Source: Escherichia coli (GTDB lineage Bacteria; Pseudomonadota; Gammaproteobacteria; Enterobacterales; Enterobacteriaceae). Taken from it: a stretch of 64,000 bases of DNA. Numbering within the stretch: position 1 is the stretch's first letter; each line of letters begins with the position of its first letter. The stretch lies in assembly GCF_016026235.1 (NCBI RefSeq), contig NZ_CP065613.1. One strand, 5' to 3'. The notes beneath the pieces are model-generated. The model saw only the letters and a program-made list of their open reading frames with translations. It did no database searches and had not been told where the DNA came from. Of this stretch, positions 33,897-58,902 are shown one piece after another. The translations under genes were made by a program, and so were the position numbers.

Positions 33897-34805
<909 letters not shown>

Positions 34806-35356
34806 TCCAGGAGATGCTCCTGCATGGCTTTCAGATATGCATTTTCTGCGCGAAGATAACGCAGCTCATTCTTCATCTCTTCCGGCGTCATGTTTCCCTC
34901 GTTTTCATGGGTATCATCAGAACGGGTCATGCTTTTCTCCTTCCTGCGCCTGATAAAGGCCTCATTACCAGATTTGCGGTAGCCTTTTATCCAGTTTTTA
35001 ACCATGTTGTGGCTGGGAATGTTAAACCGGGCGGCTACCCGGGGTAGAGACTCAGAATGCCCGAGAGCATAAAGAACCACGCAAAGTTTATCTTCAGGAG
35101 AATAGCTACGCTTGTGTCTGCAATCCAGTGCCTGAGGACCGTGAAGAAGAAAAAGATTAATCCAGTGTGAGAGGCTGGTGTGAGAAAGTTGAAAGAGTTT
35201 TGCCGTAGAAATGATGCCTGCATGACCGGCCAGGTAATGATTTACAGCGGCAAGTTTTACTTCAAATGAATGTTTCATAAACTGCACCTTCAGATGTCAG
35301 ATTATGTCCAACATTTGGGGTGCAGTTCATTAAGCGTCGCATCCGGCGAAAGTCAA

Positions 35357-37733: not shown

Positions 37734-37870
<137 letters not shown>

Positions 37871-37907
37871 CCAACAAAGCGACCCGCCTTGATATAAATC
37901 CCTGGCT

Positions 37908-38735
37908 TCAGGTGCCCAACATACTGTAACTGCGTTTCTGCTTAAACGCAGAGACATCACCAATACGCATATGCATCAGATCGGCAGGGCTAATCCATCC
38001 CGATTGCGCCAGCGTAAGCGGATGCCCGGCTTTGGCAAATGCATCAGTGACAAATTCCGAACAAAACCACGACTTTTTGTCTCCTTCGCCCACACTGCTT
38101 AACTGCGCTTTCGCCAGGCCGCTGACGCACTGTTGGCGAAAATCCTCGGAGAACGGATTCAGTGAGCACATCTGGCGAGTCACCATAAAGGGAATAAATT
38201 CGACAATGCCGCGATAGTTATAACCGCTATCTTTGATTTTATTGGCAAACGCGGTGATATCTGTGGCTTGTTGCGGGGTAAGATCCGGGACTCGTAAGAC
38301 GAAAAGCTTATCACTATGCTTCATCGCTTTTTTAAGGGAAACGATCTGGACGCCAGCGCCTGTCGCTTCTGCAACGTTATTATCACCCAGATAGATTGCA
38401 ACGTGACTCACAGAGGAAGTGCTGAAGACGCGGATTCCAAATGAGGTTACCCCAAGGCTTGAGGAGAACAGCAAATCGCCGGGTTTGAGATCAGGTACCG
38501 TTATTTCTTTTATTGATTGTTCGGTGAAAGAGCTTTGATGCTGGAATTTGACAGCCCATGTTTTTGCCTCGGCATCTACTGCTGTGGCTGATGGGTCTGG
38601 CTGGCTGATATCAACGGTACAAGCCGAAAGTAAAAGAAAGCTGGGGAGAAACAGGCGGCAGTACGCCTTTGGTTTATCCATTTTATACAATCCATGTAAA
38701 AAAAGGGCCCTGAAATTCAGGACCCTTTCTGGCAT
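37908..38735 (-). CDS. yaeF: putative lipoprotein YaeF (NlpC/P60-like)
   Basis: 275-aa ORF; internal MDKPKAYCRLFLPSFLLLSACTV resembles a lipoprotein signal, so the true start may be that Met. Confidence 0.65.
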   Translation of the reverse strand: MPERVLNFRALFLHGLYKMDKPKAYCRLFLPSFLLLSACTVDISQPDPSATAVDAEAKTWAVKFQHQSSFTEQSIKEITVPDLKPGDLLFSSSLGVTSFGIRVFSTSSVSHVAIYLGDNNVAEATGAGVQIVSLKKAMKHSDKLFVLRVPDLTPQQATDITAFANKIKDSGYNYRGIVEFIPFMVTRQMCSLNPFSEDFRQQCVSGLAKAQLSSVGEGDKKSWFCSEFVTDAFAKAGHPLTLAQSGWISPADLMHMRIGDVSAFKQKRSYSMLGT

Positions 38736-50601: not shown

Positions 50602-50678
50602 GGAGCGGTAGTTCAGTCGGTTAGAATACCTGCCTGTCACGCAGGGGGTCGCGGGTTCGAGTCCCGTCCGTTCCGCCA
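50602..50678 (+). tRNA. aspU: tRNA-Asp (GTC), distal tRNA of the rRNA operon
   Basis: 77-nt GGAGCGGTAGTTCAGTCGGTTAGAATACCTGCCTGTCACGCAGGGGGTCGCGGGTTCGAGTCCCGTCCGTTCCGCCA. Confidence 0.95.
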
Positions 50679-50840: not shown

Positions 50841-51644
50841 ATGGCTATCCCTGCATTTGGTTTAGGTACTTTCCGTCTGAAAGACGACGTTGTTATTTCA
50901 TCTGTGAAAACGGCGCTTGAACTTGGTTATCGCGCAATTGATACCGCACAAATCTATGATAACGAAGCTGCCGTAGGTCAGGCGATTGCAGAAAGTGGCG
51001 TGTCACGTCATGAACTCTATATCACCACTAAAATCTGGATTGAAAATCTCAGCAAAGACAAATTGATCCCGAGTCTGAAAGAGAGCCTGCAAAAATTGCG
51101 TACTGATTATGTTGATCTGACGCTAATCCACTGGCCGTCACCAAACGATGAAGTCTCTGTTGAAGAGTTTATGCAGGCGCTGCTGGAAGCCAAAAAAGAA
51201 GGGTTGACGCGTGAGATCGGTATTTCCAACTTCACGATCCCATTGATGGAAAAGGCGATTGCTGCTGTTGGCGCTGAAAACATCGCTACTAACCAGATTG
51301 AACTCTCTCCTTATCTGCAAAACCGTAAAGTGGTTGCCTGGGCTAAACAGCACGGCATCCATATTACTTCCTATATGACGCTGGCGTATGGTAAGGCCCT
51401 GAAAGATGAGGTTATTGCTCGTATCGCAGCTAAACACAATGCGACTCCGGCACAAGTGATTCTGGCGTGGGCTATGGGGGAAGGTTACTCAGTAATTCCT
51501 TCTTCTACTAAACGTAAAAACCTGGAAAGTAATCTTAAGGCACAAAATTTACAGCTTGATGCCGAAGATAAAAAAGCGATCGCCGCACTGGATTGCAACG
51601 ACCGCCTGGTTAGCCCGGAAGGTCTGGCTCCTGAATGGGATTAA
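50841..51644 (+). CDS. dkgB: 2,5-diketo-D-gluconate reductase B (aldo-keto reductase)
   Basis: 267-aa [49 protein letters not shown]... Confidence 0.9.
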
Positions 51645-52555
51645 GCCTCTCTGACAGCTCCTCCGGGAGCTGTTTTTACATGCTCGCTAAGGAAATCGAT
51701 AAAAGCCCGGATGCGCGTACTTACCGCACGGTCGCTGTAATAGACTGCACTGAATGGCATTTCCACTGGCAACACTTTATCTGCCATTAACTCCACCAAT
51801 TCTCCGCGAGCGATTTCTCTGTCGATCATATAGTCGGACAAACACGCAATCCCGTTGCCACTCAGGCAAAGCTGTTTCAGTGTTTCCCCACTATTGGATG
51901 ACAAACCGTACTTCACCTCATGTAATTGTCCATCGCTACAGGCTATCGGCCAGGTATTGAGGGAAGCGGGTTCAGTGAATCCCAGGCAAACATGTTGCTT
52001 TAAATCGTCGATCGTTTCTGGCTTCCCGTAGCGGGAAATATAATTGGGGGAGGCGATAATTTTTCGATAACTGTTAAATAACGGCCTGGCACGTAAGCTG
52101 GAATCCGTTAACGTACCAGCGCGTATCGCGACATCCACTTTTCTTTCGATCAAATTAATAATCGTTTCGGAGGAGACTAGCGACAAAGTGACTTCCGGAT
52201 AGCGTTCACGGAAAGGCTTAATTAACGGCATCAGAAAGTGCAGCACCACTGGAGTTGCGGCATCGATCCGTAACAGTCCACGCGGTGTATTACGCGTCTC
52301 CATAATTTCTGATTCTGCCGCTGCCATCTCCTGCAAAATTGACTGTACGCGACGAAAATAACGCTCGCCTTCTTCCGTCAGGCTAAGTTGTCGCGTGGTC
52401 CGATTAAGCAGGCTAACGCCAAGTTTCATCTCCAGCTTTTTCACCGCCCGGCTTACCGCAGAGTTTGCTTGCCCTAATTGTTCCGCTGCCCGGCTAAAGC
52501 TGCCGCTTTCTACGACCGAAACAAAAATGGCGAGTTCTTCCGACGTGGCTTTCAT
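51641..52555 (-). CDS. yafC: LysR-family transcriptional regulator YafC
   Basis: 304-aa [67 protein letters not shown]... (LysR HTH). Confidence 0.85.
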
Positions 52556-53673: not shown

Positions 53674-54444
53674 ATGACAACACAATCCCACCATGACCAC
53701 GTAGAAAAGCAGTTTAGCTCTCAAGCCAGCGAATATCTGACCAGTACCGTACATGCATCCGGACGAGATTTACAGCGCCTGGCGGTGCGTCTGGCTGATT
53801 ATCCTGATGCAAGTGTACTTGATATGGGCTGCGGAGCAGGGCATGCCAGCTTTGTCGCTGCGCAAAACGTGAGCACGGTGGTGGCGTATGACTTATCTGC
53901 CCATATGCTGGATGTCGTGGCACAAGCTGCCGAAGCCCGGCAACTGAAAAATATCACCACCCGCCAGGGATATGCCGAAAGTCTGCCATTTGCCGATAAC
54001 GCATTTGATATTGTTATCAGCCGTTATTCTGCCCATCACTGGCATGATGTTGGTGCAGCACTGCGTGAAGTGAACCGGATATTGAAACCTGGCGGTAGGC
54101 TGATTGTGATGGACGTAATGTCTCCGGGCCACCCAGTGCGCGACATCTGGTTACAGACGGTAGAAGCATTACGCGATACCTCTCACGTACGAAACTACGC
54201 CAGCGGTGAGTGGTTGAGGTTAATCAATGAAGCCAATCTGATAGTTGATAATTTAATTACAGATAAGTTACCGCTGGAATTTTCTTCATGGGTCGCGAGA
54301 ATGCGTACGCCAGAAGCGTTAGTAGACGCTATTCGCATTTACCAACAGAGCGCATCGACAGAGGTGAGAACGTATTTTGCCTTGCAGAATGATGGCTCTT
54401 TCACCAGTGATATCATCATGGTAGATGCACATAAAGCGGCATAA
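53674..54444 (+). CDS. yafE: SAM-dependent methyltransferase YafE
   Basis: 256-aa ORF with class I methyltransferase motif VLDMGCGAGH; position after yafD. Confidence 0.8.
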   Translation: MTTQSHHDHVEKQFSSQASEYLTSTVHASGRDLQRLAVRLADYPDASVLDMGCGAGHASFVAAQNVSTVVAYDLSAHMLDVVAQAAEARQLKNITTRQGYAESLPFADNAFDIVISRYSAHHWHDVGAALREVNRILKPGGRLIVMDVMSPGHPVRDIWLQTVEALRDTSHVRNYASGEWLRLINEANLIVDNLITDKLPLEFSSWVARMRTPEALVDAIRIYQQSASTEVRTYFALQNDGSFTSDIIMVDAHKAA

Positions 54445-54446
54445 AT

Positions 54447-54480
54447 AAAAAAGGCACCGGGGGAATCGGTGCCTTTTTAT
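54447..54480. terminator. bidirectional terminator between convergent yafE and mltD
   Basis: AAAAAA-GGCACCG-GGGGAAT-CGGTGCC-TTTTTAT. Confidence 0.6.
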
Positions 54481-54491
54481 TATCTGGTTTG

Positions 54492-55850
54492 TCAGGAATC
54501 TGGCATGTTGTTGTTTTTCACAAACAACGTCAGCTTATCGCCTGGTTGCAGATTCGCAGTGTCGCTGTTCCAGCGCATCACATCTTTGATGTTCACGCCG
54601 TGGCGTTTAGCAATGCTTGAAAGCGAATCGCCTTTGCGCACACGATACGTAATGCTATCGCTGTTGTTTGCCAGTCGCTGTGCGCTACTGCCTGCACCAA
54701 TCGTCAAACTTTGGCCTGGCTTCAGCTTAGATCCGCGCAGTTTGTTCCACTGCTGCAAATCTTTGGTGCTTACGCCGAGACGTGAAGCGATACTTGAAAG
54801 CGTGTCGCCAGAGCGTACGGTGTAAACACGGCTGTTAAGCGGCGTATTGTCGGCAACCAGCGTCGACTGTACAGCAGCAATTTCGCCTGAAGCCAGAGAT
54901 TCACGCAGTTGATCTGCATGCTTCTTTGGCACCATCACGTATTGCGGACCACTTGCGCCCAGCGTGGAGCCTTTCACGCCAGCGTTGAATGTCTTCAGCT
55001 TGCTGACGGAAATCCCCGCCATATCTGCAACCTTCGCCATTTCAACCGGGCTGCTCAGGTGCACACGCGCCAGAGCACGGCTTTCATCGGTCGTTGGCAG
55101 ACGTACGCCATAACGCTTGCTGTTTTTGAGAATATCACTCAATGCCAGCATTTTAGGCACGTACTGCTTCGTTTCCTGCGGCAACGGTAACGACCAGAAG
55201 TCCGTGGATTTCCCACGCGCTTTGTTCGTTTTAATTGCCTTCATGACCCGACCTTCGCCGCTGTTATAAGCCGCTACGGTCAGAAGCCAGTCGCCGTCAA
55301 ACATTTTGTTCAGACGCTGCATCATGTTCAGCGCGGCAGTTGTTGAAGCAACAACATCGCGACGCGCGTCATAATTGCGGGTCTGTTTCAAACCATAATT
55401 GCGCCCCGTGCTCGGAATGATCTGCCAGATGCCTGCGGCATTGGCGCCAGACGTTGCGTGAGGATCAAAAGCGCTCTCCACTATGGGTAGTAGTACCAGT
55501 TCCATAGGCATGTTACGTTTTTTAACTTGCCCGGCTATCCAGTACATATACGGCTCTGCCCGTAAAGTTACATCGTGGAGATAGCTCTTATTGCGTAAAT
55601 ATTTCTGTTTCTGTTCGCGAATCCGGTCATTTTCCGGAATTCCCATCTTTAGCTCGTCGCCAATGAAAGCCCACAAGTCACCATCTGGCGCGATAGACGT
55701 CCCATCGTCCATCCATCGTGCCTGACTTGTAAACTTTGCTGCTTCCCCTTGACCAGCTGCAGAAAGGCTCTGTGCGTGCTGTTGAACGTTGCCGGTACTC
55801 TGGCAACCCACGAGCAGGACAGAGGCGAGTAATATCGCTTTTGCCTTCAT
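54492..55850 (-). CDS. mltD: membrane-bound lytic murein transglycosylase D
   Basis: 452-aa ORF MKAKAILLASVLLVGCQSTGN... (lipobox); transglycosylase SLT domain and two C-terminal LysM repeats. Confidence 0.9.
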   Translation of the reverse strand: MKAKAILLASVLLVGCQSTGNVQQHAQSLSAAGQGEAAKFTSQARWMDDGTSIAPDGDLWAFIGDELKMGIPENDRIREQKQKYLRNKSYLHDVTLRAEPYMYWIAGQVKKRNMPMELVLLPIVESAFDPHATSGANAAGIWQIIPSTGRNYGLKQTRNYDARRDVVASTTAALNMMQRLNKMFDGDWLLTVAAYNSGEGRVMKAIKTNKARGKSTDFWSLPLPQETKQYVPKMLALSDILKNSKRYGVRLPTTDESRALARVHLSSPVEMAKVADMAGISVSKLKTFNAGVKGSTLGASGPQYVMVPKKHADQLRESLASGEIAAVQSTLVADNTPLNSRVYTVRSGDTLSSIASRLGVSTKDLQQWNKLRGSKLKPGQSLTIGAGSSAQRLANNSDSITYRVRKGDSLSSIAKRHGVNIKDVMRWNSDTANLQPGDKLTLFVKNNNMPDS

Positions 55851-56710: not shown

Positions 56711-57433
56711 ATGAAACCGGCAAGAGTCCCTCAAACTGTCGTGGCTCCTGATTGCTGGGGCGATTTGCCCTGGGGAGAGCTTTATCGCAAGGCGCTGGAG
56801 CGCCAGCTCAACCCGTGGTTCACTAAAATGTATGGTTTTCATCTGCTTAAGATTGGCAATTTAAGCGCAGAAATCAATTGCGAAGCGTGCGCGGTTTCTC
56901 ATCAAGTGAATGTTTCTGCGCAAGGAATGCCCGTCCAGGTGCAGGCGGATCCACTTCATCTTCCTTTTGCCGATAAATCCGTTGATGTTTGTCTACTGGC
57001 ACATACATTGCCGTGGTGCACCGATCCGCATCGTTTATTGCGTGAAGCCGATCGGGTATTGATTGATGATGGCTGGCTGGTGATTAGTGGCTTCAATCCC
57101 ATTAGTTTAATGGGATTACGCAAACTTGTGCCGGTATTGCGAAAAACCTCGCCCTATAACAGCCGGATGTTTACTCTGATGCGGCAACTGGACTGGCTCT
57201 CTTTGTTGAATTTTGAAGTGCTACACGCCAGCCGTTTCCACGTTCTCCCGTGGAATAAACATGGTGGAAAACTATTGAGCGCGCATATTCCTGCGCTTGG
57301 TTGCTTACAACTTATCGTTGCCCGGAAACGGACTATTCCTTTAACGCTCAACCCGATGAAACAGAGCAAAAACAAACCGCGAATTCGCCAGGCGGTCGGC
57401 GCCACCCGGCAATTTCGTAAACCACAGGCTTAA
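56711..57433 (+). CDS. yafS: SAM-dependent methyltransferase-like protein YafS
   Basis: ORF-track frame 56693..57433 trimmed to ATG at 56711 ([31 protein letters not shown]...), 240 aa; start uncertain. Confidence 0.75.
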
Positions 57434-57897
57434 ACTTCGACTTGGTAGCCCGTATCTTCCAGTGTGGGATTCATTGCCGCGGCACGAGCCAGTTCATCGC
57501 AACGTTCGTTTTCTGGATGACCGGCATGGCCTTTTACCCATTCCCATTTGATTTGATGCTGCCCCAGCGCAGCATCAAGACGTTGCCAGAGATCGACATT
57601 TTTTACTGGTTTTTTGTCTGCGGTTTTCCAGCCACGTTTTTTCCAGTTATGGATCCACTGGGTGATACCCTGGCGGACATACTGGCTGTCGGTACTCAAA
57701 ATGACTTCGCAATGTTCTTTTAACGCCTCCAGCGCGACAATAGCGGCCATCAACTCCATGCGGTTGTTGGTGGTGCGGGTGTAGCCAGCGCTAAAAGTTT
57801 TCTCGCGTCCGCGATAGCGTAAAATAGCGCCATAACCCCCAGGTCCGGGATTGCCCAGACACGAACCATCGGTGAAAATTTCTACCTGTTTAAGCAT
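57430..57897 (-). CDS. rnhA: ribonuclease HI
   Basis: ORF-track frame 57430..58008 trimmed to ATG giving 155 aa ([74 protein letters not shown]...). Confidence 0.93.
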
Positions 57898-57961: not shown

Positions 57962-58693
57962 ATGAGCACTGCAATTACACGCCAGATCGTTCTCGATACC
58001 GAAACCACCGGTATGAACCAGATTGGTGCGCACTATGAAGGCCACAAGATCATTGAGATTGGTGCCGTTGAAGTGGTGAACCGTCGCCTGACGGGCAATA
58101 ACTTCCATGTTTATCTCAAACCCGATCGGCTGGTGGATCCGGAAGCCTTTGGCGTACATGGTATTGCCGATGAATTTTTGCTCGATAAGCCCACGTTTGC
58201 CGAAGTAGCCGATGAGTTCATGGACTATATCCGCGGCGCGGAGTTGGTGATCCATAACGCAGCGTTCGATATCGGCTTTATGGACTACGAGTTCTCGTTG
58301 CTTAAGCGCGATATTCCGAAGACCAATACCTTCTGTAAGGTCACCGATAGCCTTGCGGTGGCGAGGAAAATGTTTCCTGGTAAGCGCAACAGCCTCGATG
58401 CGTTATGTGCCCGCTACGAAATAGATAACAGTAAACGAACGCTACACGGGGCATTACTCGATGCCCAGATCCTTGCGGAAGTTTATCTGGCGATGACCGG
58501 TGGTCAAACGTCGATGGCTTTTGCGATGGAAGGAGAGACACAACAGCAACAAGGTGAAGCAACAATTCAGCGCATTGTACGTCAGGCAAGTAAGTTACGC
58601 GTTGTTTTTGCGACAGATGAAGAGCTTGCAGCACATGAAGCCCGTCTTGATCTGGTGCAGAAGAAAGGCGGAAGCTGCCTCTGGCGAGCATAA
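57962..58693 (+). CDS. dnaQ: DNA polymerase III epsilon subunit (3'-5' proofreading exonuclease)
   Basis: ORF-track frame 57953..58693 trimmed to ATG at 57962 ([39 protein letters not shown]...), 243 aa. Confidence 0.93.
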
Positions 58694-58825: not shown

Positions 58826-58902
58826 GGAGCGGTAGTTCAGTCGGTTAGAATACCTGCCTGTCACGCAGGGGGTCGCGGGTTCGAGTCCCGTCCGTTCCGC
58901 CA
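58826..58902 (+). tRNA. aspV: tRNA-Asp (GTC)
   Basis: 77-nt sequence identical to the aspU copy at 50602..50678; lies directly after dnaQ. Confidence 0.95.

What the first reader, a model, noticed from the sequence alone, without database searches (positions are those of the whole stretch)
51641..51644. Convergent genes sharing a palindromic TTAA stop (dkgB/yafC and yafS/rnhA)
The dkgB stop TAA (51642..51644) and the yafC stop on the opposite strand (complement of 51641..51643) overlap within one TTAA. The same arrangement recurs at yafS/rnhA (57430..57433). The 3' ends therefore overlap with no room for terminators, implying transcriptional interference or very short 3' UTRs.
Basis: seen in the sequence. 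Interest (0 to 1): 0.15.

Follow-up and report, generated by a model that had tools for sequence, protein, structure and literature searches.

The report
Convergent genes sharing a TTAA stop
Two pairs of tail-to-tail E. coli genes really do share a four-base TTAA that ends both genes, but this is the commonest known kind of convergent gene overlap, and their transcription terminators are not missing but sit inside the neighbouring gene's coding sequence.

Summary
dkgB (50841..51644, +) and yafC (51641..52555, -) share TTAA at 51641..51644. yafS (56711..57433, +) and rnhA (57430..57897, -) share TTAA at 57430..57433. RefSeq annotates both overlaps the same way. The class is already described: TTAA, CTAA, TTAG and CTAG are the only tetramers that allow a 4-nt stop-stop overlap, and E. 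coli has 58-75 convergent overlaps. Both pairs are also already listed as RNA-seq "convergent excludons".

The inference "no room for terminators" does not hold. dkgB has a canonical hairpin plus U5 starting 8 nt after its stop, inside yafC's last 11 codons. This hairpin is conserved across genera with compensatory changes, and yafC reads it in two different frames, so the RNA structure is what is kept. yafC and rnhA have strand-specific hairpin plus U-tract candidates inside dkgB and yafS. These are predictions with inconclusive covariation. yafS has none, so Rho-dependent termination or read-through is inferred.

The dkgB/yafC overlap is derived in Escherichia, apparently through a ~25-bp spacer deletion between two TTAA repeats. 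The yafS/rnhA overlap is old and cycles through all four allowed tetramers.

Verdict: real, ordinary and already known.

The parts
50841..51644 (+). dkgB coding sequence (267 aa), stop TAA at 51642..51644
   Evidence: ORF; RefSeq annotation; C-terminus aligned 267/267 in about 60 other genera
51641..52555 (-). yafC coding sequence (LysR-type regulator, 304 aa); its stop is the complement of 51641..51643
   Evidence: The C-terminal tail after ...FIDFLSEH is variable in length (294-308 aa) and in reading frame between genera
51641..51644 (.). Shared TTAA holding both stop codons (dkgB/yafC)
   Evidence: Among the fetched loci it is present in the six Escherichia loci, plus an independent case in Citrobacter sp. 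NCU1 and R56
51653..51677 (+). dkgB intrinsic terminator. The stem is G-ACAGCTCC / GGAGCTGT-U with loop UCCG, followed by a U-run to 51677. It lies inside yafC codons 294-304 ([11 protein letters not shown])
   Evidence: dG -15.8 and z-score -2.5. In 49 sequences 100% of 344 cells are paired and 2 pairs show compensatory changes; 0/500 shuffles reach this. The same DNA is read in two yafC frames. It occurs once in the window
51564..51607 (-). Candidate yafC intrinsic terminator: a 13-14-bp hairpin (51607..51574) with four G-U pairs, then UUUUUUAUCUU. It lies inside dkgB codons for [15 protein letters not shown]
   Evidence: Found by the consensus scan. dG is -20.6 on the yafC-sense strand and -9.2 on the opposite strand. 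Only 7 hits this strong occur per 128 kb of strand in the window. Covariation is inconclusive
56711..57433 (+). yafS coding sequence (class I SAM-dependent methyltransferase, 240 aa), stop TAA at 57431..57433
57430..57897 (-). rnhA coding sequence (RNase HI, 155 aa); its stop is the complement of 57430..57432
   Evidence: identical to the PDB 155-aa RNase HI
57430..57433 (.). Shared TTAA holding both stop codons (yafS/rnhA)
   Evidence: A 4-nt overlap is kept in 45 of 72 Enterobacteriaceae loci (31 TTAA, 7 CTAA, 6 TTAG, 1 CTAG)
57359..57417 (-). Candidate rnhA terminator: an interrupted 15-bp hairpin (57417..57380), then CGG, then UUUGUUUUUGCUCUGUUU (57376..57359). It lies inside the last ~25 codons of yafS
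   Evidence: dG is -22.9 on the rnhA-sense strand and -13.8 on the opposite strand. Covariation is weak (73.0% paired against 71.2% in shuffles). The 3-nt gap before the U-tract is not canonical

Best explanation
Both sites are ordinary members of the well-known class of 4-nt tail-to-tail overlaps, in which one YTAR tetramer (here TTAA) carries a stop codon on each strand. The arrangement needs no special mechanism, because the two mRNAs are made and translated separately. 3'-end formation is simply moved into the partner's coding sequence. dkgB transcripts end at a canonical hairpin plus U-tract that yafC happens to translate as its C-terminal tail. yafC and rnhA transcripts most likely end at strand-specific hairpin plus U-tract signals 35-75 nt inside dkgB and yafS. 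yafS has no intrinsic signal and is inferred to end by Rho or to read through antisense to rnhA. As a result the paired mRNAs carry about 60-115 nt of complementary 3' ends. The dkgB/yafC overlap arose in the Escherichia lineage when a ~25-bp spacer flanked by two TTAA stops was deleted, which left both proteins at their previous lengths. The yafS/rnhA overlap is old and persists because the only tolerated substitutions within the tetramer are the doubly silent Y and R positions. Shown here: gene ends, hairpins, conservation and covariation of the dkgB terminator, and the comparative pattern. Inferred: actual 3' ends, Rho involvement and the deletion mechanism.
For: The sequence and annotation agree. 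The class and its four tetramers are described, and 23 of 116 E. coli convergently overlapping genes were already found to have rho-independent terminators inside the partner. Both pairs are listed as convergent excludons, and 146 of 165 such pairs have terminators overlapping the neighbour's transcription unit. The dkgB hairpin has dG -15.8 plus U5. It is 100% paired in 49 sequences, with U-A to C-G and C-G to U-A compensatory changes and with G-U pairs that exist only on the dkgB-sense strand. It is translated as TAPxGAV in 34 loci and KQLPKEL* in 14 loci because of a 1-nt indel in the T-run, and its loop changes are non-synonymous. The yafC and rnhA hairpins are much more stable on the relevant strand. 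Hairpins this strong are rare in the window background (27 at dG <= -15.7 and 7 at <= -19.9 per 128 kb of strand). Spacers of 6-123 bp occur in 57 of 66 non-Escherichia-type loci. Citrobacter has TTAA-21 nt-TTAA with YafC still 304 aa. All four allowed tetramers occur at yafS/rnhA.
Against: I could reach no measured RNA 3' ends for these genes. The Term-seq and related supplements that are held contain no entries for them. Covariation for the yafC hairpin is indistinguishable from shuffles (80.1% against 79.7%, with 71.6% when slid by +3), so that hairpin could be a by-product of conserved DkgB codons. The rnhA hairpin is separated from an interrupted U-tract by 3 nt, and many sequences break several of its pairs. 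A lenient consensus scan finds no more terminator-like sites in this 8.3-kb region than in shuffles (9 against 9.8). The set used for the dkgB hairpin test was picked with a degenerate motif, which biases it towards presence of the hairpin, though not towards pairing. The polarity of the spacer deletion rests on outgroup parsimony, not on a dated tree.
Confidence: 0.85

Rival explanations
1. One reading: the overlap leaves no terminators, so polymerases read through into the partner gene. The pairs would then be regulated by transcriptional interference or antisense RNA, as a functional excludon with mutually exclusive expression.
For: Both pairs are called convergent excludons in at least 50% of 58 RNA-seq samples. 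The predicted 3' ends imply 60-115 nt of complementary RNA. yafS has no intrinsic terminator in 70 of 72 loci. The tight yafS/rnhA juxtaposition is kept across the family.
Against: With overlapping coding sequences, any pair that is co-expressed meets the excludon coverage criterion automatically (method). Terminator signals do exist for three of the four genes. The dkgB/yafC overlap is absent from most genera that keep the same genes and the same hairpin, so the overlap itself is not what is conserved. I found no data showing anticorrelated expression or RNase III cleavage for these pairs.
Confidence: 0.15
2. The hairpins inside the coding sequences are incidental, and all four transcripts end by Rho-dependent termination once the RNA is untranslated downstream of the stop codon.
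For: Covariation for the yafC and rnhA hairpins is inconclusive. No Term-seq intrinsic 3' ends were found for these genes in the held supplements. The untranslated antisense RNA downstream of yafS has C at or above G in most 80-nt windows (C/G 1.0-1.5). Rho suppression of antisense transcription in E. coli is established knowledge.
Against: The dkgB hairpin shows compensatory changes, frame-independent conservation and an adjacent U5. The yafC hairpin plus U6 has dG -20.6, and only 7 comparably strong hits occur in 128 kb of strand. The RNA downstream of rnhA is G-rich (C/G 0.73), which is unfavourable for Rho loading.
Confidence: 0.12
3. The overlap is an annotation artefact: one or more of the four stop codons is not the real end of the protein.
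For: The YafC C-terminal tail is poorly conserved and varies in length between genera. One apparent 4-nt overlap among the relatives (L072) was an artefact of my own stop-finding.
Against: A stop codon position follows from the reading frame and is not a prediction choice. The frames are fixed by full-length homology in 66-80 loci. RnhA matches the crystallised 155-aa protein exactly. RefSeq annotates the same ends.
Confidence: 0.01

Closest known systems
4-nt convergent (tail-to-tail) stop-stop gene overlaps of prokaryotes (Lillo & Krakauer 2007, PMC2174442; model of Kingsford, Delcher & Salzberg 2007, cited from memory and from the reference list seen)
   Same: There are two opposite-strand genes whose stop codons share one of the four permitted tetramers (TTAA, CTAA, TTAG, CTAG). 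This is the modal overlap length. E. coli examples with rho-independent terminators inside the partner gene were already counted.
   Different: Nothing differs in kind. What is added here is the history of two particular junctions and the evidence that one embedded terminator is under selection as RNA.
Convergent excludons (ExcludonFinder, Sanmartin et al. 2025, PMC12288877)
   Same: dkgB-yafC and yafS-rnhA are named in that paper's E. coli MG1655 list, and terminators lie within the neighbour's transcription unit.
   Different: The excludon concept implies mutually exclusive expression and RNase III processing, and neither is shown for these pairs. Classical excludons overlap through long UTRs, not through coding sequences.
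Bidirectional intrinsic terminators between convergent genes, for example the yafE/mltD hairpin at 54448..54478 in this same window
   Same: They serve convergent gene pairs with very little intergenic space, and the 3' ends of the two mRNAs are complementary.
   Different: A bidirectional terminator is one symmetric hairpin flanked by an A-tract and a U-tract. At the two TTAA junctions the hairpins are separate, strand-asymmetric (they contain G-U pairs) and lie in coding sequence. Kosakonia and Trabulsiella do have a single intergenic hairpin at the dkgB/yafC junction.

Membership tests
4-nt convergent stop-stop overlap | Two genuine protein-coding genes on opposite strands, arranged tail to tail | tested here: met
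   Supported by ORFs and RefSeq annotation, by full-length orthologues in 66-80 loci, and by RnhA being identical to the PDB protein.
4-nt convergent stop-stop overlap | Both stop codons lie within one tetramer of the set TTAA, CTAA, TTAG, CTAG | tested here: met
   TTAA is at 51641..51644 and at 57430..57433. The set of tetramers is as given in PMC2174442.
4-nt convergent stop-stop overlap | The frequency here is no greater than the class normally shows, so no special explanation is needed | tested here: met
   The window has 2 such overlaps in 7 convergent junctions. E. coli has 58-75 convergent overlaps genome-wide. The binomial P is about 0.15, using my rough estimate of the number of convergent junctions.
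Intrinsic (Rho-independent) terminator: dkgB hairpin 51653..51677 | A G+C-rich stem-loop immediately followed by a U-tract, downstream of the stop codon | tested here: met
   It has a 9-bp stem, a tetraloop, dG -15.8 and U5, and starts 8 nt after the stop.
Intrinsic (Rho-independent) terminator: dkgB hairpin 51653..51677 | The structure is conserved with compensatory changes | tested here: met
   All cells are paired (100%), 2 pairs show double changes and 0/500 shuffles reach this. The hairpin is conserved across two yafC reading frames.
Intrinsic (Rho-independent) terminator: dkgB hairpin 51653..51677 | An RNA 3' end is measured at the U-tract, and termination occurs without Rho | not testable with these tools
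   There are no entries for these genes in the held Term-seq supplements, and other supplements are not held.
Intrinsic terminator: yafC candidate 51564..51607 (-) | Stem-loop plus adjacent U-tract | tested here: met
   It has a 13-14-bp stem, dG -20.6 and U6.
Intrinsic terminator: yafC candidate 51564..51607 (-) | The structure is conserved beyond what the dkgB coding constraint explains | tested here: inconclusive
   80.1% of cells are paired against 79.7% in shuffles, and sliding by +3 still gives 71.6%.
Intrinsic terminator: rnhA candidate 57359..57417 (-) | Stem-loop plus adjacent U-tract, conserved | tested here: inconclusive
   The hairpin has dG -22.9, but there is a 3-nt gap before an interrupted U-tract. 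73.0% of cells are paired against 71.2% in shuffles.
Intrinsic terminator: downstream of yafS | Stem-loop plus U-tract within 200 nt of the stop | tested here: not met
   There is none in the window, and only 2 of 72 related loci have a weak hit.
Bidirectional terminator | One symmetric hairpin flanked by an A-tract upstream and a U-tract downstream, so that it terminates both strands | tested here: not met
   The opposite strand of the dkgB hairpin is followed by AGAGAGGC, not by U residues. The yafC and rnhA hairpins lose 9-11 kcal/mol on the other strand.
Convergent excludon | Overlapping transcripts from neighbouring opposite-strand genes | not testable with these tools
   This is reported in the literature for both pairs. 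With overlapping coding sequences it follows from co-expression.
Convergent excludon | Mutually exclusive expression, or RNase III processing of the duplex | not tested
   I found no data for these pairs.

The most novel reading that the evidence does not exclude
The dkgB terminator hairpin is the conserved element at this junction, and YafC's C-terminal tail is merely its translation. The tail is read in either of two frames that are switched by a 1-nt indel in the terminator's U-tract. In Escherichia, the obligatory ~115-nt antisense pairing of the dkgB and yafC 3' ends (and the ~60-75 nt pairing for yafS/rnhA) might couple the expression of each pair through RNase III or polymerase collision. 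On this reading the overlaps would be small regulatory devices rather than neutral packing.
Probability: 0.12. Interest if true: 0.35.

Novelty: already known. Interest (0 to 1): 0.1.

Why it matters
It matters little as a discovery. It is useful as a correction: a coding overlap of convergent genes does not mean there are no terminators, because terminators can be embedded in the partner's codons. The dkgB/yafC junction is a clean teaching example. Its terminator hairpin is kept by compensatory substitutions while the protein tail it encodes drifts and even changes reading frame. The 4-nt overlap itself can be traced to a spacer deletion between two TTAA stop sites. The predicted 3' ends give simple, checkable positions for anyone holding E. 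coli 3'-end data.

Tried and rejected
1. I looked for measured 3' ends. The Adams et al. 2021 Term-seq supplements have no entries by gene name or by coordinate prefix. The TERMITe supplements have none. The ExcludonFinder, 3'-UTR valve, Rend-seq annotation and nanopore papers hold no supplements as text.
2. The built-in consensus terminator scan missed the dkgB hairpin, because greedy G-T extension of the stem uses up the T-run. It also found no excess over shuffles. I replaced it with an energy-based scan.
3. Covariation tests for the yafC and rnhA hairpins were inconclusive, so I did not claim these structures as selected.
4. Rfam has no known RNA family at either junction. The hairpin is not a repeated element in the window.
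5. The DkgB search of solved structures found nothing at E <= 1e-80, so I used comparative alignment instead.
6. Kingsford et al. 2007 is not held.
7. An apparent 4-nt overlap in Kluyvera cryocrescens (L072) was rejected as an artefact, because an in-frame stop lies earlier.
8. I rejected stop-codon loss with ORF extension as the origin of the Escherichia overlap. YafC is 304 aa both in Citrobacter, which has the spacer, and in Escherichia, which lacks it.

Full report
**Observation.** The window is E. coli chromosome. An 8.3-kb stretch around the finding is 95-100% identical in 5415 of 5426 complete genomes. Direct reading shows ...GGGA TTAA GCC... with TTAA at 51641..51644, and ...GGC TTAA ACT... 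with TTAA at 57430..57433. The ORF list ends a + strand ORF at 51644 and a - strand ORF at 51641, and likewise at 57433 and 57430. RefSeq annotates these as follows:

- dkgB at 50841..51644 (+) and yafC at 51641..52555 (-)
- yafS at 56711..57433 (+) and rnhA at 57430..57897 (-)

The gene ends are supported by homology in 80 Enterobacteriaceae loci fetched with YafC. The RnhA translation is identical to the crystallised 155-residue RNase HI.

**Is it more than chance?** No. The window holds seven convergent junctions: cdaR/yaeH, tilS/IS3, nlpE/yaeF, dkgB/yafC, yafE/mltD, yafS/rnhA and a hypothetical gene/hcp. Two of them are 4-nt overlaps. Lillo & Krakauer counted 58 convergent overlaps in E. 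coli. They state that 4 bp is the modal overlap and that exactly four tetramers (CTAA, TTAA, CTAG, TTAG) allow two opposite-strand stops to coincide. Huvet & Stumpf counted 75 convergent overlaps. The class is therefore textbook knowledge. On my rough estimate that about 1 in 10 convergent junctions overlap, two in seven gives P of about 0.15.

**Terminators at dkgB/yafC.** There is no intergenic room, but the signals lie in the partner's codons.

- *dkgB.* Eight nt after the dkgB stop lies G-ACAGCUCC-UCCG-GGAGCUGU-U followed by a U-run (51653..51677). It has dG -15.8 kcal/mol and z-score -2.5 against shuffles. On the other strand this DNA encodes the last eleven residues of YafC ([11 protein letters not shown]).
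- *yafC.* Thirty-four nt after the yafC stop, inside dkgB, the - strand forms a 13-14-bp hairpin (51607..51574, dG -20.6) followed by UUUUUUAUCUU. It contains four G-U pairs, so the dkgB-sense strand folds to only -9.2.

In the whole window only 27 hairpin-plus-T-tract hits reach dG -15.7, and only 7 reach -19.9, per 128 kb of strand. Most of those sit at obvious gene ends. Two such signals within 70 nt of one junction are therefore unlikely to be accidental.

**Comparative evidence for the dkgB terminator.** The motif ACAGCYYY-N4-RRRGCTGY is present at this junction in 48 of 80 loci, from Escherichia to Klebsiella, Leclercia, Yokenella and Cedecea. The evidence for selection on the RNA is as follows.

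- In an alignment of 49 sequences, every one of 344 cells forms a standard pair.
- One pair switches U-A to C-G in five sequences, and another switches C-G to U-A in one sequence.
- Four G-U cells would be C-A mismatches on the yafC-sense strand.
- No shuffle out of 500 reaches the observed covariation.
- Loop changes are non-synonymous for YafC (G, E, A, K).
- The same DNA is read as TAPxGAV in 34 loci and as KQLPKEL-stop in 14 loci. The two frames differ by a single-base indel in the T5/T4 run next to the stem.

The sequences were selected with a degenerate motif. That choice biases towards presence of the hairpin but does not force pairing. I conclude that the RNA hairpin is what is conserved and that the YafC tail is its incidental translation.

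**The other three genes.**

- *yafC hairpin.* This hairpin lies in conserved dkgB codons. Its pairing (80.1%) is no better than shuffles (79.7%), and a +3 slide still gives 71.6%. Selection on the structure cannot be shown. It remains a physically strong prediction.
- *rnhA.* Downstream of rnhA, an interrupted 15-bp hairpin (57417..57380, dG -22.9, against -13.8 on the other strand) is followed by CGG and UUUGUUUUUGCUCUGUUU. Its covariation is weak and the 3-nt gap is not canonical.
- *yafS.* Downstream of yafS nothing is found in the window, and only two weak hits appear among 72 loci. Rho-dependent termination or read-through antisense to rnhA is inferred, not shown.

**Published expression evidence.** ExcludonFinder (NAR 2025) lists both dkgB-yafC and yafS-rnhA among 165 convergent excludons seen in at least half of 58 MG1655 RNA-seq samples. 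It also reports that 146 of the 165 have predicted terminators overlapping the neighbour's transcription unit. With overlapping coding sequences, co-expression alone satisfies that paper's criterion, so this shows overlap and not interference. I could not reach any table of measured 3' ends for these genes.

**History of the two junctions.**

- *dkgB/yafC.* Only 9 of 66 loci scored as a 4-nt overlap. These are the six Escherichia loci, two Citrobacter sp. with a different tail and a different inverted repeat, and one artefact. The rest have spacers of 6-123 bp. Citrobacter has yafC-stop TTAA, 20-22 nt, then dkgB-stop TTAA, with YafC at 304 aa as in E. coli. Alignment shows Escherichia lacking exactly that ~25 bp. 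A deletion between the two TTAA repeats explains the shared tetramer without changing either protein's length. This is an inference from outgroup parsimony.
- *yafS/rnhA.* Here 45 of 72 loci keep a 4-nt overlap, using all four permitted tetramers (31 TTAA, 7 CTAA, 6 TTAG, 1 CTAG). Another 16 have abutting stops (TGATCA-type), 2 have a 2-bp spacer and 9 overlap by 16-56 bp. The central TA cannot change without destroying both stops. The outer Y and R positions are silent for both genes.

**Comparison and verdict.** The sites meet every tested feature of the 4-nt convergent overlap class. They are not bidirectional terminators, because the hairpins are strand-asymmetric. The yafE/mltD hairpin at 54448..54478 in the same window is a true bidirectional terminator. 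Excludon membership in the functional sense is untested. No known RNA family lies at either junction. The finding is real, ordinary and already known. Interest is low, and the frame-switching terminator-encoded tail of YafC is a minor curiosity.

Noticed in passing
window 54448..54478: A symmetric hairpin, AAAAAGGCACCGGGGGAATCGGTGCCTTTTT, lies in the 47-bp spacer between convergent yafE (53674..54444, +) and mltD (54492..55850, -). It scores as a terminator on both strands (dG -18.7 and -17.4). It is a textbook bidirectional terminator and a useful contrast to the two TTAA junctions.
   Followed up: partly
window about 52540..52549 (between yafC and yafD): The otherwise near-identical genome FDAARGOS_943 carries an IS1A insertion here, ending 9 nt upstream of the yafC start codon. 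The window lacks it. This insertion polymorphism probably disrupts the yafC promoter in that strain.
   Followed up: partly
window 58826..58899 and onwards to about 64000: The tRNA-Asp gene (aspV) after dnaQ is followed by a hypothetical gene and by type VI secretion genes (hcp, a VasL-domain gene, tssM). This looks like a genomic island at the tRNA gene. A second, identical-scoring tRNA-Asp lies at 50602..50675, after the rRNA operon.
   Followed up: no
window about 33927..35275: An IS3-family transposase with a programmed frameshift lies between rof and tilS. It creates one of the window's convergent junctions.
   Followed up: no
window about 37855..38678: yaeF is annotated as a frameshifted pseudogene in the near-identical reference genome.
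   Followed up: no
window 56693 against 56711: The yafS ORF can start at GTG 56693 (246 aa), but RefSeq starts it at ATG 56711 (240 aa). Similarly, the rnhA ORF extends mechanically to a GTG at 58008, against the true start at 57897.
   Followed up: no
L044, L045, L053 (Trabulsiella); L068-L070, L075 (Kosakonia), dkgB/yafC spacer: These genera have a different, fully intergenic hairpin between the two stops (for example AGCGAGTGGC-N-GCCACTCGCT and AACGGGAGC-N-GCTCCCGTT). In them YafC ends earlier, at 295-299 aa. The terminator at this junction has therefore been replaced at least once.
   Followed up: partly
L048, L049, L050 (Citrobacter sp. NCU1, R56, Awk 4), yafC 3' end: The usual hairpin is replaced by another inverted repeat (CATGCGGG-N11-CCCGCATG), and the YafC tail is unrelated. 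L048 and L049 reach a 4-nt TTAA overlap with dkgB independently of Escherichia.
   Followed up: partly
window 13688..13731: A very stable hairpin (dG about -28 on both strands) lies between the co-directional genes frr and ispC. It scores as a terminator on both strands although no gene converges there.
   Followed up: no
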